Source: Candidatus Eiseniibacteriota bacterium
GTDB taxonomy: Bacteria; Eisenbacteria; RBG-16-71-46; CAZAMP01
Length of the DNA: 64,000 bases
Assembly: GCA_965224245.1 (NCBI GenBank)
Contig: OZ245046.1
Span: 5,888,001-5,952,000 of the forward strand
Direction of reading: 5' to 3'
Shown here: positions 7,502 to 17,198 of the stretch, piece after piece
How positions within the stretch are numbered: position 1 is the first letter of the stretch
How the letters are laid out: every line of letters starts with the position of its first letter
Notes under the pieces: model-generated
Databases searched by the model: none
What the model was told of the DNA's origin: nothing
What the model saw: only the letters and a program-made list of their open reading frames with translations
Position numbers and translations under genes: made by a program

Positions 7502-7993
7502 CTAGGACAGCTCGGGCGCAGGCGGTCGACCGCCGTCGTCGCGCAGGTGGCCGTGGTGGATGAGCTCGAAGCCCTTGCGGGCGAGGACCGCCGTTCCCGC
7601 GGTGAGGTCGTCGCAGTGGATCAGCATGACGGGCCGCGCGAACGGTCGGCAGAAGAGCGGGTACGAGTAGTGGATGTTGACCTCGGCTTCCAGGAGGGCC
7701 CGGCAGACGTTGCCGATCGCGTCATGGCCTCTCCGGAGGCTCACCGCCAGGAGCTCGCTCTTGGTGACCGAGTACCCGCACTCGCGGAGCGTCTTGTACG
7801 CCCACGGGGGGTCGCTCAGAATGATCCGGACGACCGCGTGATCGGTGGCGTCCCAGACGCTCATGCCGTAGATCTCGATGCGGGCCTCGTCGAGCTTGGT
7901 CGTCAGCTCCAGCAGCTCGCCGACGCGGTTGCGAAGGAATATCGAGAACTGCGTGACGCTGGGCTCGTCGAACTTGTGGAAAGTGGCCGACAT
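7502..7993 (-). CDS. Tandem ACT-domain protein (COG4747-like)
   Basis: QFSIFLRNRVGEL...INIHYSY-like second repeat (VNIHYSYP); start MSATFH at 7993; 7 nt upstream of the tricorn gene. Confidence 0.8.
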   Translation of the reverse strand: MSATFHKFDEPSVTQFSIFLRNRVGELLELTTKLDEARIEIYGMSVWDATDHAVVRIILSDPPWAYKTLRECGYSVTKSELLAVSLRRGHDAIGNVCRALLEAEVNIHYSYPLFCRPFARPVMLIHCDDLTAGTAVLARKGFELIHHGHLRDDGGRPPAPELS

Positions 7994-8114
7994 CGAGGGA
8001 TGGACCTCCGACTCGCGGTACCGTCTCGAGGCTCGGAGTGAGTGCGCGGAGCGTAGCAAACGGCCGGTCCCCCCACAACGCGATAGTGGCCCAGGAGTCC
8101 GAGGGTTACGCGGC

Positions 8115-8429
8115 TCAGCGGAGTCGCACGGCCGTCCCGTAGGCGAGGATCTCGGCGGCCTGTGCCTGCACCATCGACGTCGTGAACGTGATCCCGACCA
8201 CCGCATCGGCTCCCAGCGCGCGGGCCCGCTCGCGCATCCGGTCGAGCGCCTGCTCGCGGCTCTCGGCCAGGAGCTTGGTGTACTCGCCGATCTCGCCGCC
8301 CACGAGGCCCTTCAGGCCCGCTATGAAGTCGTGCCCGAAGTGGCGGGCGCGGATCGTGTTGCCCGTGACCACCCCGAGCACCTCGCCGATCTCGCGTTCC
8401 GGAACCGTGAAGGTCGTGGTCTCGATCAT
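8115..8429 (-). CDS. YbjQ/UPF0145 family protein
   Basis: LGVVTG...AGLKGLVGGEIGEYTKLLAESREQALDRMRERARALGADAVVG...AYGTAV; 4-nt overlap with the anti-sigma gene. Confidence 0.92.
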   Translation of the reverse strand: MIETTTFTVPEREIGEVLGVVTGNTIRARHFGHDFIAGLKGLVGGEIGEYTKLLAESREQALDRMRERARALGADAVVGITFTTSMVQAQAAEILAYGTAVRLR

Positions 8430-8911
8430 CGCTTCACCTCTCGATAGGGGTCGCGCCGTTCGGTGAAGAACCGCTCGCGAATCACCGAGACGACGATCAC
8501 GGCGCCGCCGACCGACAGCAGGCCGATCGCGAGACGGACCCACCATGGGTCCTCGGGGCTGGCCAGGAGCCAGTGCACGAAGTCGGGGAGCGCTCGAGCC
8601 AGCGCCGCCGCGAGCAGGATGATCGCCCCGATCGACACCAGCAGCCACCCGAACCGTCGCTCGAGGCGGTTGTAGGTGGTCCGCCAGTAATCGTCGAAGA
8701 CGTCGTCCGGGAACGGATCGAGCTTCATGGCCGCGGTGACTCCTCTCAGCTGCCGGAAGGCCTCCAGCTCCTGGGCCAGCTCGGGGGAGCGAACCAGCTC
8801 CGCCTCGAACTCGGCGCGCTCGGTCGGGTCGAGCTCGTCGTCGAGGTAGCCGCTGATCAGATGACTCCGGCGACCGACGTCCTCGGGACGTCGCGGGTCG
8901 TGGTCAGTCAT
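8426..8911 (-). CDS. Membrane anti-sigma factor (RsiW-like N-terminus, two TM helices)
   Basis: LISGYLDDELDPTERAEFEAEL N-domain, two hydrophobic segments, C-terminal DPYREVKR; overlaps ECF gene. Confidence 0.8.
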   Translation of the reverse strand: MTDHDPRRPEDVGRRSHLISGYLDDELDPTERAEFEAELVRSPELAQELEAFRQLRGVTAAMKLDPFPDDVFDDYWRTTYNRLERRFGWLLVSIGAIILLAAALARALPDFVHWLLASPEDPWWVRLAIGLLSVGGAVIVVSVIRERFFTERRDPYREVKR

Positions 8912-9497
8912 GCTGCTCTCCTCGGGCGTCGCCTCCGCGCAGCACCGGCGCGAGCAGTGCCCGCAGCCTGGCTCGCGCGTGGTGGAGACGGCTCATCACC
9001 GTCCCCTTCGGGATGTCGAGCACCGCGGCGATCTCCGCATACGTGAGATCCTGAAACTCGCGCAGCACGAGGATCTCGCGATCGTTCTCGCCCAGACGCC
9101 GGATCGCGCTCCAGACGAGGGCCCGGAGCTCCGCCCGCTCGGCCAGGAGCTCGGGCGACGGGGCGGGCGAGGCGAGGGGGGCGTCGTCCCCGAGCGGTGT
9201 CTCGCGCCGCGTCGACGCGCGCGCCAGGTGGTTGAGGCACAGGTTCCTCAGGATCCGGTGAAACCACGGATAGAATGGGCGGTCGGGGTCGAACCGCCTG
9301 ATCGCCCGGAATGCTCTGGCGAACGCCTCCTGGGACAGGTCGAGCGCGTCGTCCCGGCTCCCCGTCCAGCCCATGGCGAAGCCGGCCGCTCGTCGCATGT
9401 AGCGGCTGACGATGGGCTCGAACGCATCCCGCTCGCCGTCCTGGCAGCGGAGGATGAGCGCGCGCTCGTCGGCATCGAGATCCAGGGCATGGTCCAT
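8904..9497 (-). CDS. ECF RNA polymerase sigma factor
   Basis: GERDAFEPIV, DALDLSQEAF, FYPWFHRILRN, LTYAEIAAVLDIPKGTVMSRLHHAR; start MDHALD at 9497. Confidence 0.92.
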   Translation of the reverse strand: MDHALDLDADERALILRCQDGERDAFEPIVSRYMRRAAGFAMGWTGSRDDALDLSQEAFARAFRAIRRFDPDRPFYPWFHRILRNLCLNHLARASTRRETPLGDDAPLASPAPSPELLAERAELRALVWSAIRRLGENDREILVLREFQDLTYAEIAAVLDIPKGTVMSRLHHARARLRALLAPVLRGGDARGEQHD

Positions 9498-9797
9498 CGC
9501 ATCGGCCTTTCTGTCGCCGCTCGGCTTCGAGGGGGAGTACCGGCGACCGGGCGGCGTATTCATGCGATCGTGCGACCTTCCTCGGGCTCCGGAGCCTCTC
9601 CCGCGGCCGGCCCGCCCCGTGAGTCCGAGCGGGAGGGGACCGGGGAGTCCAGCCGACCGTGCCCGCCGTGCCGACCGTGGGCCAGGGTACGCGATCGACG
9701 GCCGCAGCGTCGCGGCCGACCCTGGGGACGGACCGGCGCCGGCCGGGGTTGCCTCAACTCGGCTCGACCCACGTTCGGAGGCGATCGTGGAGAGCCG

Positions 9798-9841
9798 CCA
9801 CGCGCCGCGTTCCCACACGCCGCGTACCACGCGCCGCGTGG
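9798..9841. repeat. Three near-tandem 13-bp repeats CCAC(G/A)CGCCGCGT
   Basis: Copies at 9798-9810, 9813-9825, 9827-9839, in the intergenic region just past the alr stop. Confidence 0.6.
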
Positions 9842-9859
9842 CAGTCGGACGGCCGACCG

Positions 9860-11035
9860 CTAGCTCAGGATCCTCGGCAGGTGAGCGGGAATCCGCGTCA
9901 CGACCTCGTAGTTGATCGTGTCGCACCAGCGGGCGAGATCGTCCGCGCGGATCTCCTCGTCCCCCTGAACGCCGAGGAGACACGCCTCGTCGCCGACGCG
10001 CGCGTCGGGGATGTGCGTGACGTCGATCATGCACATGTTCATGCACACCCGCCCCCGGACCGGTGCTCGCTCGCCGCGCACCAGGACGTGCGCGCGGCCC
10101 GAGAGGCCGCGATCGTATCCTTCGTAGTACCCGATCGGCAGGATCGCGATCCGGCTGGGGACGCTCGTCCGGTAGGTCCGGCCGTAGCCGATGAACGCGC
10201 CCGCCGGCACGTCCTTGACCTCCGTCACGGTGGTGACCCAGCGGAGAGCCGGTCGCAGCTCGATCGGATGGTCCCGCTCGGTGCGATAGCTGAGAAGCGT
10301 CTCTCGGCTCGGCCAGAGGCCGTACAGTCCGATGCCGACGCGAACCATCTCCAGGTGCGTCTCGGGAAACAAGAGCGCGGCCGCGGTACACGCGATGTGG
10401 CGGGACGCGAACCGAACGCCGAGCGCCGACAGCTCCTTCTCGGCGGCCGTGAAAGCCCGCTTCTGGGAGTCGGCGTAGTCGTGCTCGAGCGTGTCCTCGA
10501 TGTTGGCGAAGTGCGTGGTCAGACCGACGGGCTCGAGACGATCCGGATGCCGGGTGATGGCGGCCGCGACGTCGGTGAACGTGGACGGCATCGCGCCCCG
10601 CCGATGCGTGCCCGTCTCGACCTTGAGGTGCGCCCGGGCCCGCGTGCCGGCCGCTCCGGCCGCCTCGGCCAGGCGATCCAGCTCCGCCGCCGTGGTCACG
10701 ACCACGTCCAGGTCGTGGGCCAGCACGTCGTCGTAGCGATCGGGGTCCACGAAGCCCATCACGAGCACGCGCACGTTCGGGAGGTGCCCGCGGAGCGCCA
10801 GCCCCTCCTCCAGCGAGTTGACCCCGTACCAGCTCACGTTCGAATCGCCGAGCGCGCCCAGCACCTGGACGAGCCCGTGCCCGTAGGCGTTCGACTTCAC
10901 CACGGGCATCACGTGACGGTCGTGGCCGGCCAGGAGCCGGAACAGCTCGAGGTTGTGAACGAGAGCGTCGCGGCTCACGTAGACGCGCGTCAGGGCTTCC
11001 AGGATCTCCTCCAGTCTCCGCGCCGGTGGTGGCAT
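9860..11035 (-). CDS. alr: Alanine racemase
   Basis: PLP motif VVKSNAYGHG, HLKVETGTHRRG, MVRVGIGLYG, IGYG, GRVCMN, TINYEV. Start is ATG 11035 or possibly the in-frame CTG at 11002 behind GGAGG. Confidence 0.95.
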   Translation of the reverse strand: MPPPARRLEEILEALTRVYVSRDALVHNLELFRLLAGHDRHVMPVVKSNAYGHGLVQVLGALGDSNVSWYGVNSLEEGLALRGHLPNVRVLVMGFVDPDRYDDVLAHDLDVVVTTAAELDRLAEAAGAAGTRARAHLKVETGTHRRGAMPSTFTDVAAAITRHPDRLEPVGLTTHFANIEDTLEHDYADSQKRAFTAAEKELSALGVRFASRHIACTAAALLFPETHLEMVRVGIGLYGLWPSRETLLSYRTERDHPIELRPALRWVTTVTEVKDVPAGAFIGYGRTYRTSVPSRIAILPIGYYEGYDRGLSGRAHVLVRGERAPVRGRVCMNMCMIDVTHIPDARVGDEACLLGVQGDEEIRADDLARWCDTINYEVVTRIPAHLPRILS

Positions 11036-11246
11036 CTCGGGGCGCAGTCTAGCGTCCGGCGACGGTCGTGTCTCTGTTCGATGCCGTCGTGCATGACGCC
11101 TGGACCGCGCCCGCGCGGGGTGGCCGCAATCGCGCACCCGGCGGTGCATCCCCGCCATCTCGATCCTCGGGCGCGCCCCCGGCACCGGGAGTCCGATCGA
11201 TTGAGGGTGATCGCCGGAACACCTCTCACGCGGACGGGAAGCACCG

Positions 11247-12251
11247 ATGCTCTACTCCCAACATCTCGTCGACCACTTCCGGTCACGGCTCGTGGGCCAG
11301 GATCTCGCGATCCGCGAGATGGTGCGCGCGCTGACGGTGGCGCGCTCGGGACTCCACGCCCGCACCGGTCCGCTGGGCGCGTTCATGTTCCTGGGTCCGA
11401 CCGGTACCGGAAAGACGACGCTGGCCCGGGCCGTGGCCACCGAGCTGTTCGGACGCCCCGAGCTGGTGATCAACCTCGGCGTGTCCTCGGCGAGCTCGGC
11501 CGTGAACCTGATCGAGTCGCTCGGCTTCCACGTCGAGCGCTGCGGCGGACTCGTCACGGCCAGCGACACCGAGGGCCGCGCGCGCCGGCTCGTGCACGCG
11601 GTGGTCATCATCGAGGACTACCTCGACGCCGAGGCCGAGATCGGGCGAATGCTGTGCCAGCTCATCGACGACGCGGCGCTGCCGCTCGGCGGAGGCGACG
11701 TGCTGGACCTCTCGCGCGTCGTCTTCGTGTTCGAGTCCCGCGAGTGCACCGATCAGCTGGACGAGCTGGCGCGCTCGTCGTCGCGGATTGGATTCCACGA
11801 TCGACCCGATGCGCACGACCTGGATGCCAACGACGAGGTCGACGAGAAGCTCTACCTCGCCGCGCGCAAGCAGATCGAGTCCGAGTTTCCCTCGGAGTTC
11901 GTGGGGCGACTGGATCGCGTGATCGTCTTCAAACGCCTGCGTCCGGAGCATCTGGCCTTGCTCGTGGACCGGCAGGTGGCGGAGATCGAGAGCGGACTGG
12001 CGGCGCGCGGTCTGCCCGGGGTACGGCTGCGCCTGGAGGAGCCGCTTCGCGAGCACCTGCTCGGCAAGGCCCAGCGTCGGCTGCATCTCGGCGCGCGTCC
12101 GCTCCTGCGCAACGTGCGCAAGTACGTTCTGTTCCCGGTGGCCGATCTGGTCGCGTCCGGTGCCATCGTGCCAAACGTCGACGTCCGGCTGGACATCGCC
12201 GGCGGACGATCGATCGCACGGGTGCGTGCATCCAACGTGGACGCGGCCTGA
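11247..12251 (+). CDS. Stand-alone Clp/Hsp100 D2-type AAA+ protein with degenerate catalytic motifs
   Basis: RLVGQDLAI, FMFLGPTGTGKT, RIGF, FPSEFVGRLDRVIVF, GARPL; no N-domain or D1 ring. Confidence 0.85.
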   Translation: MLYSQHLVDHFRSRLVGQDLAIREMVRALTVARSGLHARTGPLGAFMFLGPTGTGKTTLARAVATELFGRPELVINLGVSSASSAVNLIESLGFHVERCGGLVTASDTEGRARRLVHAVVIIEDYLDAEAEIGRMLCQLIDDAALPLGGGDVLDLSRVVFVFESRECTDQLDELARSSSRIGFHDRPDAHDLDANDEVDEKLYLAARKQIESEFPSEFVGRLDRVIVFKRLRPEHLALLVDRQVAEIESGLAARGLPGVRLRLEEPLREHLLGKAQRRLHLGARPLLRNVRKYVLFPVADLVASGAIVPNVDVRLDIAGGRSIARVRASNVDAA

Positions 12252-12267
12252 GCGCGAGGTCCGGTGG

Positions 12268-13071
12268 TCACCCCTCGCGGCGCGCGTGAGCGCGGGCGGT
12301 CAGGCGTCGTGCCAGACCCTCGAGCCGTTCGAGACACTCGGGCGTCCGGAACGCCGCGAGCTGGGCGGCCTCCTCGTTCGCGAGAGCCCGCCGTAGCGGC
12401 GCCTCCGCGCGCGCCGCGTGCTCGCGCTTGATGCTGGAGACGACCGCCTCGGTCACGTCGACCAGGCGAGCCGCCAACGTACCCGGCTCGCGCTCGACCG
12501 CGTGGGGCGGCACCACCCGGTCCACCACGCGGAGCTTCGCGGCGTCGTGAGCGTCGACGACACGCCCCGACCAGAGTAGATCCTGTGCGATCGCGCGCCC
12601 GCAGCGCGCGGCCAGCGTGTGCGTGAGTCCCAGGTCCGGATGCAGCCCCAGACGAACCTGCGTGGCGCCCAGGGTGGCGCGTGGCGTCGCGATGACCACG
12701 TCGCACGCGAGCGCCAGACCCAGGCCCGCACCGGCGGCGGGGCCGTTCACGAGCGCCAGAATCGGCTTCGGGCATTCGATGGCCAGGCGGGCCACGACGT
12801 CGTGTGCGGATCGAACGAGGCGCGCGAAGCCGTTCCAATCGCGGCGGCGCCGGAGCTCGATGAGATCGGTCAGATCGAGTCCGGTGCTGAACGCCCGTGA
12901 CGCCCCCTCCAGCGCGATCACGCGCGCGTCCGAATCGGACGCGCGATGCAGCGCGGCCAGCAGCTCGGTCAGCGTGTCGCCGCACAGCGCGTTGTGGCGC
13001 TCCGGACGGTCGATGACGATGCGCGTGCACGGACCGTCGCGGCGCATGAGAACGCTGGACGTCGCGGGCAT
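12268..13071 (-). CDS. Enoyl-CoA hydratase/isomerase family protein
   Basis: IDRPERHNAL, AFSTGLDL, KPILALVNGPAAGAGLGLALACD, LGLHPDLG; start MPATSS at 13071. Confidence 0.88.
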   Translation of the reverse strand: MPATSSVLMRRDGPCTRIVIDRPERHNALCGDTLTELLAALHRASDSDARVIALEGASRAFSTGLDLTDLIELRRRRDWNGFARLVRSAHDVVARLAIECPKPILALVNGPAAGAGLGLALACDVVIATPRATLGATQVRLGLHPDLGLTHTLAARCGRAIAQDLLWSGRVVDAHDAAKLRVVDRVVPPHAVEREPGTLAARLVDVTEAVVSSIKREHAARAEAPLRRALANEEAAQLAAFRTPECLERLEGLARRLTARAHARREG

Positions 13072-13511
13072 CTCGGACCTCCCGTCACCGAGCAACGGCG
13101 AGACGACGGCGGCGAGCCGGATCACGCGGGGCGCCTGGGACCGAGGGTGAGGCGCGAGGAGGGATCGAGCGCACGAACGTGGCCGGTCGGACCCGCCGAC
13201 GGAGGGACTGGGCTGGGTTCCACCTGACGTCACGCTAGCACCGGCCCAGGGAGAGGTCAACGGCCGGGCCGCGATGCCGGGGATCGACCAGGGAAGCAAG
13301 TTCCCTGGCCCGCCGGGGCCGACGGCTCGACGTTCAGATCCGGCGGCGCATCCCCGACGTATTGCGTACGGCGGGGCCGTCCCCGGTGGATGCGGGACGC
13401 CTCGCGGACGGGTTACACTCATCGGACTCGCCCCTCCGATCACGACGCGCGCCGGCGGCCCGGCCCGTTCCGCCGAGAGGCACGCCCGGTCCACCACGAG
13501 GACGACGATCG

Positions 13512-15638
13512 ATGGAAGCTCACGAACGAAAGCGGACACCCCGGCCTGCACCCGAGCCGATCCCGATCACATCGCTCGAGGATCCCTCGCTCTACTTCAA
13601 TCGGGAGCTCAGCCGCGTGTGGTTCTACTTCCGCGTGCTGGATCAGGCCCGGGACGCGAACGTCCCGCTCCTGGAGCGCGTCCGGTTCCTGACCATCTCC
13701 AGCGCGATCCTCGACGAGTTCTTCGAAATCCGTGTCGCGGGTCTCGAGGAGCAGGTCGCGATGGGCATCTCGAAGCCCGGCGCCGACGGGCTCACCGCCA
13801 CCGCGACGCTGGAGCAGATCCGCACGCTCGTCGTACGGCTGGTGGCCGAGCAATACGAGACGCTCGACCAAGAGCTCTTGCCCGCGCTGCGCGACGAGGG
13901 GATCGACGTCCGCTTCGCCGACCGGTGGACAAAGGCCGAGGTCGAGTGGCTTCGCCGGTACTTCGATGCCGAGGTCCTGCCGGTGCTGACCCCCGTGGGG
14001 CTCGACCCCGCGCACCCGTTCCCGAAGATCCTGAACAAGAGCCTCAACTTCCTGGTGACGCTGGAGGGCAAGGATGCGTTCGGGAGACGGGGCGGACGCG
14101 CCGTCATCCAGGCGCCGCGGCTCTTGCCGCGACTGGTCCGCGTGCCCGACGACGTGAGCCACGACGCCACCGTGATCGTCCCCCTGGTCAGCATCATCGA
14201 GGCCTTCGTGGGCGAGCTCTTCCCGGGCATGAAGGTGCGCGACTGCCACCAGTTCCGCGTCACGCGCAACAGCGATCTCTGGATCGAAGAGGAGGAGGTC
14301 GACGATCTCCTGAGCGCGCTGCAGGGCGAGCTCGCGGGGCGGCACTACGCGCACGCGGTCCGACTCGAGGTGGATGCCGAGATCGGTGACGACGTCCTGG
14401 AGTTTCTGTGTTCCCGGTTCCAGCTCCACGAGGCCGACGTCTACCGGGTCGAGGGCCCGGTGAACCTGAGCCGTTTCTCGTCCCTGCTGGATCTCGTCGA
14501 CCGGCCCGCGCTCAAGTATCCTCCGTTCAAGCCGGGGCTCCCCGGCAAGCTCAACGCCCGGTCCAAGGATCTCTTCTCGATCATCCGCGACCGGGATCTC
14601 CTCCTCCATCATCCGTATCAGAGCTTCGCGCCGGTGCTCGAGCTCCTGCACGAGGCGGCGCGCGATCCCAACGTGCTGGCCATCAAGCAGACCGTCTATC
14701 GCACCGGGATGGCGTCGGCGGTCGGTCGGGCGCTTCTGGAGGCGGCGCGCGCGGGCAAGGAGGTCACCGCGGTCGTCGAGCTCCGGGCCCGGTTCGACGA
14801 GGCCGCCAACATCAAGCTCGCGTCGGATCTCCAGGAGGCGGGGGCGAAGGTCGTGTACGGCGTCGTCGGCTTCAAGGCGCACGGCAAGATGCTGATGATC
14901 GTGCGCCGCGAGGGCGACCGCCTCCGGCGCTACGTGCACCTCGGCACCGGAAACTACAACGACGTCACCGCGCGCCAGTACACCGACTTCAGCCTCATCA
15001 CCGCCGACGACGAGATCGGCGAGGACACGCACGCGCTCTTCCAGCAGCTCACCGGGCTCGGGAAGGTGCGCAGGCTGAAGAAGCTCCATCAGACCCCGTT
15101 CGGGCTTCACGACACGCTTCTCGAACGGATCGAGCTCGAGATCGAAGAGGCCAACGCCGGCCGCCCGGCCCGCATCGCGGCGAAGATGAACTCGCTGATC
15201 GAGACCGACATCATCCGCGCGCTGTACCGTGCCTCGCGCGCGGGCGTCCAGGTCGACCTGGTCGTGCGGGGGATCTGCTGCCTTCGCCCCGGCGTGCCCG
15301 GTGTGTCGGAGAACATCCGCGTGCGGTCGGTTCTCGGTCGCTTCCTCGAGCATCACCGCGTGTTTCACTTTCACGCGGCCGGCGAGAAGGTGATCATGTG
15401 CTCCAGCGCCGACTGGATGCCCCGCAACTTCTTCAAGCGGGTCGAGGTCGCGTTCCCGATAGAGGCGCGAAAGCTCAAACGTCGCCTCATCGACGAGGGT
15501 CTCGACGTGTACTTCCGGGACAACTGCCAGGCCTACGAGATGGGAGCAGAGGGCCAGTACACCCGAGAGGATCCCGGCGCCGAGCCCCGCTGGTCGGCCC
15601 AGGAATCGCTGCTCGACGCGCTCGCCGACTGGACCTGA
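13512..15638 (+). CDS. ppk1: Polyphosphate kinase 1
   Basis: YFNRELS, LDEFFEIRVAGL, DPAHPFP, LLHHPYQSF, ELRARFDE, HLGTGNYN, GRFLEHHR, SADWMPRN. Confidence 0.97.
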   Translation: MEAHERKRTPRPAPEPIPITSLEDPSLYFNRELSRVWFYFRVLDQARDANVPLLERVRFLTISSAILDEFFEIRVAGLEEQVAMGISKPGADGLTATATLEQIRTLVVRLVAEQYETLDQELLPALRDEGIDVRFADRWTKAEVEWLRRYFDAEVLPVLTPVGLDPAHPFPKILNKSLNFLVTLEGKDAFGRRGGRAVIQAPRLLPRLVRVPDDVSHDATVIVPLVSIIEAFVGELFPGMKVRDCHQFRVTRNSDLWIEEEEVDDLLSALQGELAGRHYAHAVRLEVDAEIGDDVLEFLCSRFQLHEADVYRVEGPVNLSRFSSLLDLVDRPALKYPPFKPGLPGKLNARSKDLFSIIRDRDLLLHHPYQSFAPVLELLHEAARDPNVLAIKQTVYRTGMASAVGRALLEAARAGKEVTAVVELRARFDEAANIKLASDLQEAGAKVVYGVVGFKAHGKMLMIVRREGDRLRRYVHLGTGNYNDVTARQYTDFSLITADDEIGEDTHALFQQLTGLGKVRRLKKLHQTPFGLHDTLLERIELEIEEANAGRPARIAAKMNSLIETDIIRALYRASRAGVQVDLVVRGICCLRPGVPGVSENIRVRSVLGRFLEHHRVFHFHAAGEKVIMCSSADWMPRNFFKRVEVAFPIEARKLKRRLIDEGLDVYFRDNCQAYEMGAEGQYTREDPGAEPRWSAQESLLDALADWT

Positions 15639-15641
15639 CGG

Positions 15642-17198
15642 TCAGCTCGAACCCGGTGCGTCACCCACCTGGGCATTGCTCTCGACCACGAGGCGCGTGC
15701 CCACCGCATCCAGCCACTTGGCCTCGGCGCGGAGATCGCCGGCCGTGAGGGGATGCTCGTCCAGCCAGCCCGGCGGAAACTCGACCGTGAGCGTGTCGGG
15801 GTCGCGTAGCGCGATGACTGGTGGCGTCTGGTCGGTCCGGCTCCGGCACAGGAGCGCGCTCAGCCGGAAGAGGATGGCCAGCCGCATCGCGAACGCGTGT
15901 CGCTGCCGGGGGATGTCGCCGAAGGGGAGGCGGGAGATCCCCCGCCGGTGATTGTGGATGAGCATCGCCAGGAGCGCCTGGTCGTCGGCGCTGAAGCCGG
16001 GCATGTGAGAGTGCCGTACCAGGTACGCGCCGTGCTTGTGGTAGCCCGAGTATGAGAGCGCCAGGCCGATCTCGTGCAGGGAGGACGCCCAGGCCAGGAA
16101 CCGCTCGGCCACGTCGTGCGGCATGTCGGGCGTGTCGGGCAGCTGAGCCAGGAGCGCGCTGGAGAAGGCCTGGAGCCGGTCGGCCTGATCCACGTCGACG
16201 CCGTATCGACGCATGAAGCGCTGGATCGTCCGTTCGCGAACGTCCTGACGCTGCAGGCGGCCGAGGAGGTCGTAGATCACGCCCTCGCGGAGCGCGCCGC
16301 TGGCCCGCACGAGCTCGTCGATCCCCAGGCTCTTGAACACCCCGATCAGAATGGCGAGCCCGCCCGCCAGCACCGGGGCCCGATCGGACTTGAGACCGTT
16401 CAGCGAGAGTCCGGCCGTGGAGCCGGCGTTGACCAGGAGACGGCGCAGCTTCTTCAACGCCGGAAGCGTGATCTCGCCCGCGGTGATCTCCTCCCCGCGC
16501 AGGATGTCGCTGATCGCGTTGATCGTGCCCGACGCACCGAGCGTCGAGCTCCAGCCGTGCTTGCGAAACGCGCCCTCGAGGCTCTGCAGCTCGCGCCGCG
16601 CCTCGGTCTCGGCCAGGCGAAACGCCTCGCGTTCGATCCGGCCCTTGGGGAAGTACCGGCGCGAGTAGCTCACGCAGCCCATGAACAGGCTGTGCGCCAG
16701 ATCGACGTCGTATCCCTCGCCGACGATGACCTCGGTGGAGCCGCCGCCGATGTCGATGACGAGCCGCCGGCCGTCCGCGCCGTGCAGGTGCGAGACACCC
16801 AGGTAGATGAGTCGCGCCTCTTCCTCGCCCCCGATGACCTCGATCGGGTGGCCGAGCGCCCGGGCCGCCCCCTCACGGAACGCGTCGTCGTGGCGCGCCT
16901 GCCGCAGCGTGTTGGTCCCGACCGCGCGCACGAACCGGGGGCTCAGTGAGCCGAGACGCTGCCCGAACCGCCCCAGGCAATCGATCGCACGGGCGCGCGC
17001 CTTCTCCGAGAGCGTGTGTTCGTGCGTCAGCCCGGCGGCCAGCCGGACCGGCTCCTTCAGGCGATCGATGACGTAGAGCCCATCCGGGGTGGCCCTGGCG
17101 ATGATCAGGTGGAAGCTGTTGGAGCCCAGGTCGACCGCCGCCACCGTCTCGGTGTCGGTGGGCTGCTCGGTCGTATCGGCGTCGGAGAAGGGGCTCAT
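15642..17198 (-). CDS. ppx: Exopolyphosphatase, Ppx/GppA family
   Basis: AAVDLGSNSFHL, VGTNTLR, EEARLIYLGV, DIGGGSTE, GALREG, LHEIG. Confidence 0.95.
   Translation of the reverse strand: MSPFSDADTTEQPTDTETVAAVDLGSNSFHLIIARATPDGLYVIDRLKEPVRLAAGLTHEHTLSEKARARAIDCLGRFGQRLGSLSPRFVRAVGTNTLRQARHDDAFREGAARALGHPIEVIGGEEEARLIYLGVSHLHGADGRRLVIDIGGGSTEVIVGEGYDVDLAHSLFMGCVSYSRRYFPKGRIEREAFRLAETEARRELQSLEGAFRKHGWSSTLGASGTINAISDILRGEEITAGEITLPALKKLRRLLVNAGSTAGLSLNGLKSDRAPVLAGGLAILIGVFKSLGIDELVRASGALREGVIYDLLGRLQRQDVRERTIQRFMRRYGVDVDQADRLQAFSSALLAQLPDTPDMPHDVAERFLAWASSLHEIGLALSYSGYHKHGAYLVRHSHMPGFSADDQALLAMLIHNHRRGISRLPFGDIPRQRHAFAMRLAILFRLSALLCRSRTDQTPPVIALRDPDTLTVEFPPGWLDEHPLTAGDLRAEAKWLDAVGTRLVVESNAQVGDAPGSS

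What the first reader, a model, noticed from the sequence alone, without database searches (positions are those of the whole stretch)
11247..12251. Clp D2-only protein that keeps the ClpP-docking IGF loop but has lost Walker B, pore loop and sensor 1: candidate pseudo-ATPase regulator of ClpP
Seen: a 334-aa intact ORF, alone on its strand, equal to just the second AAA+ ring of ClpA/C. It keeps Walker A (GPTGTGKT), the arginine finger (EFVGRLD), sensor 2 (GARPL) and SSRIGFH (IGF at 11787-11795). Walker B reads VVIIEDY instead of hhhhDE, the GYVG pore loop is replaced (SLGFHVERCGG) and sensor-1 TSN reads ESR. Known: IGF/IGL loops dock ClpA/C/X on ClpP, and Walker B DE plus the pore tyrosine are needed for hydrolysis and threading. 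Inference: nucleotide binding, oligomer and ClpP contacts are kept while motor functions are lost. That fits a ClpP gate-opener, a competitor, or a dominant-negative subunit better than random decay.
Basis: partly seen in the sequence, partly recalled or inferred. Interest (0 to 1): 0.7.

Follow-up and report, generated by a model that had tools for sequence, protein, structure and literature searches.

The report
Motor-dead Clp ring keeping ClpP loop
A small conserved bacterial protein looks like half of a Clp unfolding machine that has lost its motor parts but carefully kept the loop such machines use to dock on the ClpP protease, so it may be a natural cap or regulator of that protease.

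Summary
Window 11247-12251(+) encodes an intact 334-aa protein equal to one Hsp100/Clp D2 ring (AAA_2 plus ClpB_D2-small; confident D2 fold).

It is not a decaying fragment:
- 10 metagenomic proteins and one genome orthologue share 48-58% identity, its length and its substitutions.
- Gene order is conserved between the two genomes that carry it.
- Omega is about 0.34.

In 13 of 13 family members with the region covered, the [IV]GF tripeptide is present (G and F invariant). It aligns with the LGF/IGF/VGF loops of the genome's own ClpC, ClpC-like and ClpA proteins. In 0 of 13 is there a Walker B DE, a T-S-N sensor 1 or a GYVG pore loop. Walker A, arginine finger and sensor 2 are invariant.

The family sits inside a larger clade of single-ring proteins. 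Its active-looking members keep pore loop, DE, TSN and IGF. Across 25 degenerate-clade sequences only 12 columns are invariant, and G and F of the loop are two of them.

Best reading (about 0.5): an ATP-binding, non-threading ring that docks on ClpP.

ClpP binding itself is untested, because the complex-prediction tool became unavailable. I found no description of such a family in print.

The parts
11247..12251 (+). Complete gene for the 334-aa single-ring Hsp100/Clp D2-type protein (P0001); the end coordinate includes the stop codon
   Evidence: ORF list. Pfam AAA_2 (47.6 bits, cut-off 27) and ClpB_D2-small (30.1 bits, cut-off 21.9). The N-terminus MLYS/MFYS is shared by orthologues. AF2 model pLDDT 92.4.
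11394..11417 (+). Walker A GPTGTGKT (residues 50-57), retained
   Evidence: G50, P51, T52, G53, G55 and K56 are invariant in 11 of 11 family sequences. G50, P51, G55 and K56 are invariant in 25 of 25 degenerate-clade sequences.
11517..11549 (+). SLGFHVERCGG (residues 91-101): a family-specific conserved motif in the place of the GYVG pore-1 loop
   Evidence: Aligned to GAPPGYVGY of the genome's own ClpB/ClpC/ClpA. G93, H95, E97 and R98 are invariant in 11 of 11. 0 of 13 family members have GY[VL]G. The model puts residues 85-98 in a helix.
11601..11621 (+). Degenerate Walker B VVIIEDY (residues 119-125): no catalytic Glu
   Evidence: Aligned to VVLLDEI of the genome's own Hsp100s. The family reads hhhh[E/D/A/H][D/G]; 0 of 13 have DE.
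11733..11741 (+). ESR (residues 163-165) in place of sensor-1 TSN
   Evidence: Aligned to TSN of the genome's own Hsp100s. The position varies within the family (ESR, ECP, KSS, ECG, NGR, KCR); 0 of 13 have TSN.
11787..11795 (+). IGF tripeptide (residues 181-183), candidate ClpP-docking loop, at the start of a flexible loop (181-191) between two helices
   Evidence: Aligned to ClpC VGF and to the genome's own ClpC LGF, ClpC-like IGF and ClpA VGF; the column is empty in ClpB and L005. G182 and F183 are invariant in 11 of 11 and 25 of 25. The loop has pLDDT about 56 between H168-180 and H192-213.
11829..11855 (+). Acidic motif NDEVDEKLY (residues 195-203) directly after the loop; a signature of the whole single-ring clade
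   Evidence: D196, E197, D199 and Y203 are invariant in 11 of 11. The same motif occurs in degenerate relatives P0039, P0040, P0057 and P0082 and in six active-looking Acidobacteriota relatives.
11901..11918 (+). VGRLDR (residues 219-224): arginine-finger region, retained
   Evidence: Aligned to LNRIDE of the genome's own Hsp100s. V219, G220, R221, D223 and R224 are invariant in 11 of 11. R221 is conserved in at least 90% of 25 sequences.
12090..12101 (+). GARP (residues 282-285): sensor-2 arginine motif, retained
   Evidence: G282, A283, R284 and P285 are invariant in 11 of 11. Aligned to GARP of the genome's own Hsp100s.
9860..11185 (-). Divergently transcribed neighbour: alanine racemase (context only, conserved in G001)
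   Evidence: Pfam Ala_racemase_N and Ala_racemase_C. The same neighbour is present in G001 (L096:49-1185).
12268..13551 (-). Convergent neighbour: enoyl-CoA hydratase family (context only, conserved in G001)
   Evidence: Pfam ECH_1. The same neighbour is present in G001 (L096:2590-3417).

Best explanation
The gene encodes a pseudo-unfoldase: a single-ring, D2-type Clp/Hsp100 protein.

Proposed mechanism:
1. It still binds ATP (Walker A, sensor 2).
2. It still senses ATP across subunit interfaces (arginine finger), so it probably still assembles into a ring when ATP is bound.
3. It cannot hydrolyse ATP at a useful rate (no Walker B Glu, no sensor-1 Asn).
4. It cannot grip or thread a polypeptide (no aromatic pore loop).
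5. It keeps the flexible helix-loop-helix with the [IV]GF tripeptide that ClpX, ClpA and ClpC insert into the hydrophobic sites on the apical face of ClpP.

The most likely mode of action is therefore an ATP-dependent but non-motor cap on the housekeeping ClpP1. By occupying the docking sites it would regulate the protease. It could exclude the four real unfoldases of this genome (ClpX, ClpA, two ClpC-like), or hold the ClpP gate open for unfolded or peptide substrates without threading.

Shown: the anatomy, its conservation and its evolutionary origin.
Inferred: ring assembly, lack of hydrolysis, ClpP docking, and the direction of the effect.
For: Fold and homology: Hsp100 D2.

Real gene under constraint:
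- 10 metagenomic proteins at 48-58% identity and 324-357 aa.
- An orthologue in G001 at 51% identity with the same neighbours.
- pN 0.324 against pS 0.609, omega about 0.34.

Selective pattern:
- xGF present in 13 of 13 tight-family and 14 of 14 looser degenerate relatives.
- DE in 0 of 13 and 1 of 14.
- GYVG in 0 of 27.
- G182 and F183 are 2 of only 12 invariant columns in 25 sequences that go down to 25% identity.

Internal controls: the same column carries [LIV]GF in the genome's own ClpC, ClpC-like and ClpA and is empty in its ClpB and L005. The genome's ClpX also has LGF.

The loop is predicted flexible: pLDDT about 56 inside a model of 92.4.

The arginine finger is invariant, which has a function only in an oligomer (inference).

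Origin: the family lies inside a clade of single-ring proteins whose other members keep pore loop, DE, TSN and IGF.

Established knowledge: IGF loops dock in ClpP H sites formed by two adjacent subunits, and small molecules that bind those sites activate ClpP (passages of PMC9035409). [quoted passage not shown] That grafting the ClpA loop suffices for ClpP binding is recalled, not read here.
Against: No direct or computed evidence of ClpP binding: the complex prediction was never completed.

No clpP gene lies beside the gene in G000 or G001, beside the two degenerate Acidobacteriota relatives, or among 21 flanking ORFs scanned around 8 related loci.

The genome's divergent second ClpP does not co-occur with the gene: G001 lacks it.

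Ring assembly of a D2-only protein is assumed, not shown.

The xGF could be kept for another partner or for a structural reason.

D124 is nearly invariant and might support slow hydrolysis.

The direction of the effect on ClpP cannot be told from sequence.

No expression data were found (one search lists no RNA run).
Confidence: 0.5

Rival explanations
1. A ClpP-independent ATP-binding switch, scaffold or holdase in protein quality control. The ring or monomer binds ATP and client or partner proteins. The xGF loop is kept because it contacts some other partner or stabilises the fold.
For: In two Acidobacteriota genomes the degenerate relatives (42% identical to each other) lie directly downstream, on the same strand, of an orthologous HSP20 small heat-shock gene (45% identity, E 1e-45) plus small proline-rich ORFs. 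That points to chaperone work. No clpP is seen in any neighbourhood examined.
Against: The sHSP linkage is seen in 2 genomes of one sub-branch only and is absent from the window's family. G000 and G001 have only generic HSP20s elsewhere and housekeeping neighbours. Within Hsp100 proteins of this genome the xGF loop is present exactly in the ClpP partners and absent from ClpB and L005. A purely structural role would not explain invariance of G and F in a loop that the model predicts to be disordered. An sHSP link is also compatible with delivering clients to ClpP.
Confidence: 0.25
2. A still active but unconventional unfoldase for ClpP. Hydrolysis would use D124 or another acidic residue, and the conserved H-x-E-R motif would replace the aromatic pore loop as the substrate-contacting element.
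For: D124 is conserved in at least 90% of the family. The replacement motif has invariant G93, H95, E97 and R98, so it is functional in some way. Some looser relatives keep EE or DE at Walker B: P0040, P0082, P0131 and P0035.
Against: The residue before D124 varies (E, D, A or H), and one sub-branch (the P0007 cluster) reads HG with no acidic residue at all. Sensor 1 is not conserved. The model places the H-x-E-R motif at the end of a helix and not in a loop. That all three hydrolysis and threading elements were lost together is most simply read as loss of the motor (inference).
Confidence: 0.1
3. A dominant-negative or modulating subunit that mixes into the D2 ring of the genome's two-ring ClpC or ClpA hexamers.
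For: It keeps the trans-acting arginine finger and the interface-forming D2 fold. The genome has three two-ring ClpP partners with which it could mix.
Against: It lacks a D1 ring and an N-domain, so it would leave a gap in a two-tier hexamer (inference). It is only about 25-30% identical to those D2 rings. It belongs to a separate clade of single-ring proteins, not to the ClpC or ClpA branches. No orphan D1 or N-domain gene exists that could complement it: all 5 AAA_lid_9 hits and all 7 Clp_N hits lie inside long two-ring ORFs.
Confidence: 0.08
4. A decaying gene fragment with no function.
For: Loss of several canonical catalytic motifs.
Against: The frame is intact with conserved length in 11 clusters plus G001. 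70 columns are invariant in the 11-sequence alignment. Omega is about 0.34. Gene order is conserved. The replacement motifs are themselves conserved. The predicted fold is confident.
Confidence: 0.02

Closest known systems
D2 (second AAA+) module of ClpC / ClpA, the two-ring ClpP-partner unfoldases
   Same: Same fold and domain pair (AAA_2 plus D2-small). End-to-end alignment to ClpC 506-807. Walker A, Arg finger, sensor 2 and the [IVL]GF ClpP loop sit in the same columns.
   Different: No N-domain, no D1 ring and no M-domain. Walker B Glu, sensor-1 Asn and the GYVG pore loop are all missing. It scores 104-118 bits against NCBIfam ClpA/ClpB equivalog cut-offs of 993-1232. It branches with single-ring proteins, not with ClpC or ClpA.
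Uncharacterised clade of active-looking single-ring D2-type proteins (P0015, P0017, P0068, P0106; 36 of 401 sampled Acidobacteriota genomes score at that level, and the six I fetched are of this type)
   Same: Single AAA_2 plus D2-small architecture. IGF loop followed by the D/N-x-E-[IV]-D-x-K-I-Y motif. Same clade in both trees (support 99; SH-aLRT 99).
   Different: These keep PPGY[LV]GH, Walker B DE and sensor-1 TSN. The window's family has lost all three. I found no paper on this clade.
ClpX
   Same: A single-ring ClpP partner that docks through IGF/LGF loops (passages of PMC9035409; the genome's own ClpX has LGF).
   Different: ClpX has a zinc-binding N-domain, a GYVG pore loop, and intact Walker B and sensor 1 (visible in the genome's own ClpX). 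The NCBIfam ClpX model matches the query only at the P-loop (E 0.0013).
Chloroplast co-chaperonin Cpn11/20/23 capping ClpP
   Same: [quoted passage not shown] This is a precedent for a natural non-unfoldase ClpP cap.
   Different: Unrelated fold (GroES-like), seven-fold symmetric, eukaryotic organelle. It is not an AAA+ relative and does not bind nucleotide.
Plastid split ClpC2 of Nannochloropsis and apicoplast ClpM (D2-only Clp proteins)
   Same: Stand-alone proteins made of one D2-type AAA module (passage of PMC3999925). For ClpM I saw only the search listing and the start of the abstract of bioRxiv 10.64898/2026.05.20.726455.
   Different: The Nannochloropsis ClpC2 shows the opposite pattern: it keeps the GYVG pore loop, and its ClpP-binding loop is deleted or diverged.
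ATP-independent proteasome activators (PA26/PA28, bacterial Bpa/PafE) and hydrolysis-dead ClpX variants
   Same: Functional analogy only: rings that dock on a self-compartmentalised protease through short motifs and change gate state without threading. A Walker B mutant ClpX still binds ClpP.
   Different: Different folds (the activators) or laboratory mutants (ClpX). No natural AAA+-derived example for ClpP is known to me or was found.

Membership tests
Clp/Hsp100 D2 module (Pfam AAA_2 PF07724 + ClpB_D2-small PF10431) | Scores above the curated Pfam cut-offs for both domains | tested here: met
   AAA_2 47.6 bits (cut-off 27); ClpB_D2-small 30.1 bits (cut-off 21.9).
Clp/Hsp100 D2 module (Pfam AAA_2 PF07724 + ClpB_D2-small PF10431) | D2 three-dimensional fold | tested here: met
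   AF2 model pLDDT 92.4, pTM 0.88. Foldseek top hits are ClpB NBD2 and ClpC D2, E 3e-24, TM 0.65-0.76.
ClpA / ClpC (two-ring ClpP-partner unfoldases) | Two AAA+ rings plus an N-domain | tested here: not met
   334 aa, D2 only. All orthologues are 324-357 aa. No orphan D1 or Clp_N gene in the genome.
ClpA / ClpC (two-ring ClpP-partner unfoldases) | NCBIfam equivalog score cut-off | tested here: not met
   ClpA TIGR02639 104.4 bits against cut-off 993; ClpB TIGR03346 118.5 bits against cut-off 1232.
ClpA / ClpC (two-ring ClpP-partner unfoldases) | Walker B hhhhDE with catalytic Glu in D2 | tested here: not met
   VVIIED. 0 of 13 family members have DE.
ClpA / ClpC (two-ring ClpP-partner unfoldases) | Aromatic pore-1 loop GYVG | tested here: not met
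   Replaced by GFHVERCGG. 0 of 13 have GYVG.
ClpA / ClpC (two-ring ClpP-partner unfoldases) | Sensor-1 Asn (TSN) | tested here: not met
   ESR here; the position varies in the family; 0 of 13 have TSN.
ClpA / ClpC (two-ring ClpP-partner unfoldases) | ClpP-docking [IVL]G[FL] loop in D2 | tested here: met
   IGF is aligned to ClpC VGF and to the genome's own ClpC, ClpC-like and ClpA loops. It is invariant in the family.
ClpA / ClpC (two-ring ClpP-partner unfoldases) | Physical binding to ClpP | not testable with these tools
This needs biochemistry.
ClpX | Zinc-binding N-domain, GYVG and RKH loops, ClpX family model | tested here: not met
   The NCBIfam ClpX model matches residues 47-66 only, E 0.0013. 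The genome's real ClpX is a different gene beside clpP.
ClpB disaggregase | Two rings plus an M-domain and absence of the ClpP loop | tested here: not met
   Single ring. It carries the loop that the genome's own ClpB lacks.
Single-ring D2-type clade with IGF loop (unnamed; P0015-like) | Groups with these proteins in a tree, apart from two-ring Hsp100 D2 modules | tested here: met
   FastTree: 44-row group, support 99. IQ-TREE quick: 40-row group, SH-aLRT 99. No bootstrap was run and the root is not established.
Single-ring D2-type clade with IGF loop (unnamed; P0015-like) | IGF followed by the acidic D/N-x-E-[IV]-D-x-K-I-Y motif | tested here: met
   NDEVDEKLY here. The same motif occurs in six Acidobacteriota active-type members and in P0039, P0040, P0057 and P0082.
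Anti-phage defence systems (PADLOC) | Significant match to a defence-system protein model | tested here: not met
   Only weak P-loop-level matches; the best is DolB, E 2.9e-8, over residues 7-69. The neighbours are housekeeping genes.

The most novel reading that the evidence does not exclude
This is the first natural AAA+-derived, non-motor cap for bacterial ClpP. A ring assembles on ATP binding, plugs its IGF loops into the ClpP docking sites and never threads a substrate. It would be an endogenous protein counterpart of the acyldepsipeptide-type activators, or of the proteasome's ATP-independent activators. It would gate ClpP open for unfolded clients (perhaps clients held by small heat-shock proteins, as the Acidobacteriota operons hint), or it would shut out ClpX, ClpA and ClpC under particular conditions.
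Probability: 0.35. Interest if true: 0.8.

Novelty: new variant of a known kind. Interest (0 to 1): 0.62.

Why it matters
ClpP is a central bacterial protease and a drug target. All known natural protein partners that use its apical docking sites in bacteria are active unfoldases (ClpX, ClpA, ClpC, ClpE). The only known agents that occupy those sites without threading are small molecules.

A conserved protein that keeps the docking loop and nucleotide binding, but has shed hydrolysis and threading, would be a new regulatory layer for ClpP. It would also be a clean natural experiment that separates docking from motor function in AAA+ proteases.

The idea is directly testable with standard assays. 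The wider clade (active and degenerate single-ring D2-type proteins with IGF loops) also appears to be undescribed, and it offers matched active and inactive pairs for comparison.

Tried and rejected
1. Complex prediction (2 x ClpP1 alignment A3 plus protein alignment A2). The job was accepted, polled and lost on the remote machine. There is no verdict of any kind.

2. The search for related loci in genome contigs with A1. It was swamped by ordinary two-ring Hsp100s through the generic Walker A pattern, so it was useless for context.

3. Metagenome scans. The first, with A4, found no relative. The second, with a degenerate DNA pattern of my own, gave one chance hit, L147, which holds a hydrolase and a TetR-like gene. 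So I have no DNA or context for the metagenomic family members, and dN/dS rests on one pair of sequences.

4. Profile search with A5. It recovered only the tight family and P0082 because of the word prefilter, so the family size remains a lower bound.

5. Expression: no RNA holder listed.

6. No Rfam match in 10800-12500. No sigma-70-like promoter or intrinsic terminator in 10900-12500.

7. PADLOC gave only P-loop-level matches.

8. The protein atlas gave nearest clusters of about 300-aa AAA_2 plus D2-small families. It has no exact entry and no structure search for this protein.

9. Split-gene idea rejected: no orphan D1 or Clp_N pieces.

10. Second ClpP (L014) as dedicated partner rejected: not found in G001 with this query.

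11. The G037 short-frame hit turned out to be a normal ClpC D2 interrupted by masked bases.

12. Planctomycetota sample: 0 of 401. Five single genomes of other phyla: 0 of 5. Only 5 candidates per genome were scored in the large searches, so these are weak negatives.

13. clpP adjacency of related single-ring genes: none among 21 ORFs flanking 8 loci. L174 was not scanned because my frame filter failed on its low G+C.

14. Earlier notes of this scan: nothing.

15. One search failed on a wrong parameter ('of' needs a genome handle). I corrected it through.
Full report
**What is there**

Window 11247-12251 (+) is an intact ATG-started ORF of 334 aa. It stands alone on its strand, between a divergently oriented alanine racemase gene (9860-11185, -) and a convergent enoyl-CoA hydratase gene (12268-13551, -).

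Pfam finds AAA_2 and ClpB_D2-small above their cut-offs. NCBIfam matches only the last third of the ClpB, ClpA and ClpV models, far below their cut-offs. HMMER against PDB sequences aligns it end to end with B. subtilis ClpC residues 506-807 (E 4e-28).

An AlphaFold2 model built on 26 sequences is confident (pLDDT 92.4, pTM 0.88). Its best structural matches are ClpB NBD2 and ClpC D2, including chains from ClpC-ClpP complexes.

IGF is exactly at 11787-11795.

**It is a conserved gene, not a remnant**

- A search of 5.8 billion proteins returned ten clusters of 324-357 aa at 48-58% identity.
- An exhaustive HMMER search of 1.84 billion representatives found two representative clusters plus two fragments. 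After a clear gap came more distant single-ring proteins.
- In the 11-sequence alignment 70 columns are invariant.
- Among 61 related genomes the gene is found in G000 and in the only other genome of its taxonomic family, G001 (51% identity). It was not found in the other 59.
- With the family profile, 2 of 206 genomes of the phylum have a true orthologue (E about 1e-159). The other 20 hits are at about 1e-46 to 1e-50. Nineteen of them lie in open frames of 722-930 aa, consistent with two-ring Hsp100s. I did not inspect these individually, except G037, which is a ClpC D2 interrupted by masked bases.
- G000 and G001 share the gene order racemase / gene / hydratase.
- A Nei-Gojobori comparison of the two genes gives pN 0.324, pS 0.609 and omega about 0.34. 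Synonymous sites are close to saturation, so the ratio is rough, but it is far from neutral.
- G053, flagged as unpublished, is one of the relatives counted in these tallies. No claim depends on it.

**The pattern of loss and retention**

I aligned the family with the D2 modules of the genome's own Hsp100 proteins and then with all 185 proteins collected.

| Feature | State in the tight family |
|---|---|
| Walker A (G50, P51, T52, G53, G55, K56) | invariant |
| Arginine-finger region (V219, G220, R221, D223, R224) | invariant |
| Sensor 2 (G282, A283, R284, P285) | invariant |
| Walker B | hhhh[E/D/A/H][D/G]; DE in 0 of 13 |
| Sensor-1 T-S-N | not conserved; TSN in 0 of 13 |
| GYVG pore loop | 0 of 13; replaced by G-[FYL]-H-[VI]-E-R with invariant G93, H95, E97, R98 |

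The 13 are the members with the region covered. The conservation pattern (position 123 variable, D124 nearly invariant) suggests that D124 may be what is left of the Mg-binding aspartate, with the catalytic glutamate gone. That is my inference.

The model puts the replacement motif at the end of a helix (residues 85-98), not in a loop.

By contrast, [IV]GF is present in 13 of 13. It falls in the same column as LGF, IGF and VGF of the genome's ClpC (L002), ClpC-like (L003) and ClpA (L004) proteins, while the column is empty in its ClpB (L001) and in L005. The genome's ClpX also carries LGF.

The tripeptide sits at the start of the only low-confidence stretch of the model (residues 181-191, pLDDT about 56), between two helices. 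This is the helix-loop-helix arrangement of ClpP-docking loops (that description is recalled).

**A wider clade**

The exhaustive search also brought in 14 shorter, more distant proteins (25-37% identity) with no GYVG. Walker B DE is present in 1 of 14, and xGF in 14 of 14.

Across 25 sequences of this degenerate clade only 12 columns are invariant: R27, G50, P51, G55, K56, G182, F183, D223, F228, G282, P297 and D300. So the G and F of the loop are as constrained as the P-loop.

Trees:
- FastTree on 179 rows puts the 13 tight and 14 looser sequences in one group (support 94), inside a 44-row group (99), all of whose rows are under 500 aa.
- An IQ-TREE quick search on 67 rows gives the same picture: single-ring group 99, tight family 100, tight family plus P0035/P0046/P0164 99, all degenerate rows 87, and with the still-canonical P0094 97.
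- Neither tree has bootstraps, and the root is not established.

The other members of the single-ring group keep PPGY[LV]GH, DE, TSN and xGF. The ten I scanned are AAA_2 plus D2-small only, and one has a C-terminal receiver domain.

In a sample of 401 Acidobacteriota genomes, 42 have a hit at E 1e-75 or better:
- 2 degenerate ones.
- 4 with an APPGYVGH pore loop and an EE Walker B.
- 36 at 255-270 bits. I fetched six of these, and all six have PPGYLGH, DE, TSN, IGF and the acidic motif D/N-x-E-[IV]-D-x-K-I-Y.

The window's protein has that same motif after its IGF (NDEVDEKLY; D196, E197, D199 and Y203 are invariant).

So the window's protein is best seen as a motor-dead branch of a single-ring, IGF-bearing Clp clade. 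It is not a truncated ClpC.

**What it probably does**

[quoted passage not shown] The loops are flexible. Small molecules that occupy the same sites activate ClpP (passages of the review PMC9035409).

An ATP-binding ring with intact arginine finger and sensor 2, no catalytic glutamate, no sensor 1 and no aromatic pore loop should assemble with ATP and dock, but should not turn over ATP or thread. It would then act as a cap on ClpP.

A precedent for a natural non-motor cap exists in chloroplasts. There the co-chaperonin Cpn11/20/23 inserts mobile loops into the ClpP clefts and represses proteolysis in vitro (abstract and passages).

Which way the effect goes (excluding ClpX, ClpA and ClpC, or opening the gate for unfolded clients) cannot be read from sequence.

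The candidate partner is the housekeeping ClpP1, encoded in a trigger factor-like / clpP / clpX gene order. The genome's divergent second ClpP (L014) has no counterpart in G001, which nevertheless has the gene.

**What speaks against this reading, or is missing**

- I could not compute the complex.
- No clpP lies next to the gene or next to any relative examined. This is weak evidence, since clpA and clpC are usually not clpP-linked either (recalled).
- Ring formation by a D2-only protein is assumed.
- No RNA data were found.
- The family's size and range are lower bounds, because the word-indexed searches are swamped by canonical Hsp100s and the metagenome DNA scans gave nothing.

**A side lead**

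In both Acidobacteriota genomes that carry a degenerate relative (G394, G494; proteins 42% identical), the gene follows an orthologous HSP20 gene on the same strand (45% identity, E 1e-45). The two HSP20 proteins share a conserved N-terminal region. One or two small proline-rich ORFs lie in between.

This ties that branch to protein quality control. It fits either delivery of sHSP-held clients to ClpP or a ClpP-independent chaperone role. The window's family has no such linkage.

**Rivals**

- A ClpP-independent ATP switch or holdase (0.25).
- An unconventional but active unfoldase (0.10).
- A subunit that poisons ClpC or ClpA rings (0.08). This is disfavoured by the lack of D1, the separate clade and the absence of orphan D1 or N-domain genes.
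- A dead fragment (0.02), contradicted.

**Novelty**

Four full-text searches found no description of a natural pore-less, hydrolysis-motif-less Clp protein that keeps the ClpP loop, nor of the single-ring D2-type clade. The library lacks most subscription journals.

The nearest published D2-only protein I could read about, Nannochloropsis plastid ClpC2, has the opposite pattern: GYVG kept and the ClpP loop lost.

I rate this a new variant of a known kind.

Noticed in passing
L159:6287-9020 (G394) and L160:6853-9029 (G494): In two Acidobacteriota genomes a degenerate single-ring relative lies downstream, on the same strand, of an orthologous HSP20 gene with a shared unusual N-terminal region. 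Small proline-rich low-complexity ORFs lie in between. In L160 a 55-codon ORF overlaps the HSP20 stop codon (ATGA). This is a possible sHSP-linked operon.
   Followed up: partly
L172-L177 (Acidobacteriota genomes G359, G299, G604, G481, G520, G260); proteins P0015, P0017, P0068, P0106, P0150: An apparently undescribed clade of active-looking single-ring D2-type Clp ATPases (PPGYLGH, DE, TSN, IGF plus an acidic D/NxE[IV]DxKIY motif). 36 of 401 sampled Acidobacteriota genomes score at that level, and the six fetched are of this type. In three of the loci scanned (L172, L175, L176) the gene lies beside a myo-inositol-1-phosphate synthase gene.
   Followed up: partly
proteins P0019, P0021, P0022, P0186: Members of the single-ring clade fused to a response-regulator receiver domain (C-terminal in P0019). 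They would be phosphorylation-controlled Clp-type ATPases with an xGF loop.
   Followed up: no
proteins P0084, P0085, P0099, P0113, P0151, P0172 and relatives (500-1170 aa): A separate, well-supported clade that keeps Walker B DE, TSN and xGF but has a non-aromatic, acidic sequence in place of the GYVG pore loop.
   Followed up: no
G000:C1:4477772-4478542 (L014/L148), outside the window: A second, divergent ClpP paralogue with a long N-terminal extension and without the usual N-terminal loop sequence. It was not found in the sister genome G001.
   Followed up: partly
G000:C1:2918512-2919009 (L006), outside the window: A protein with an open frame of more than 1100 aa that has an AAA_2 match (E 8e-43). 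My simple pattern checks found no Walker A, no GYVG and no xGF in it, so it may be another atypical Hsp100 relative in the same genome.
   Followed up: no
window 8426-10391 (-) and 13362-17198: Upstream of the racemase there is an ECF-type sigma factor region followed by a putative membrane anti-sigma ORF (judged by eye from the translations, not scanned). Downstream there are large ppk-like (+) and ppx-like (-) ORFs in convergent orientation, also named by eye only.
   Followed up: no
window 7502-8648 (-) and L161:5160-5591: A YbjQ_1 (putative heavy-metal-binding) gene lies a few genes upstream of the racemase in both G000 and G001, which extends the conserved gene order.
   Followed up: partly
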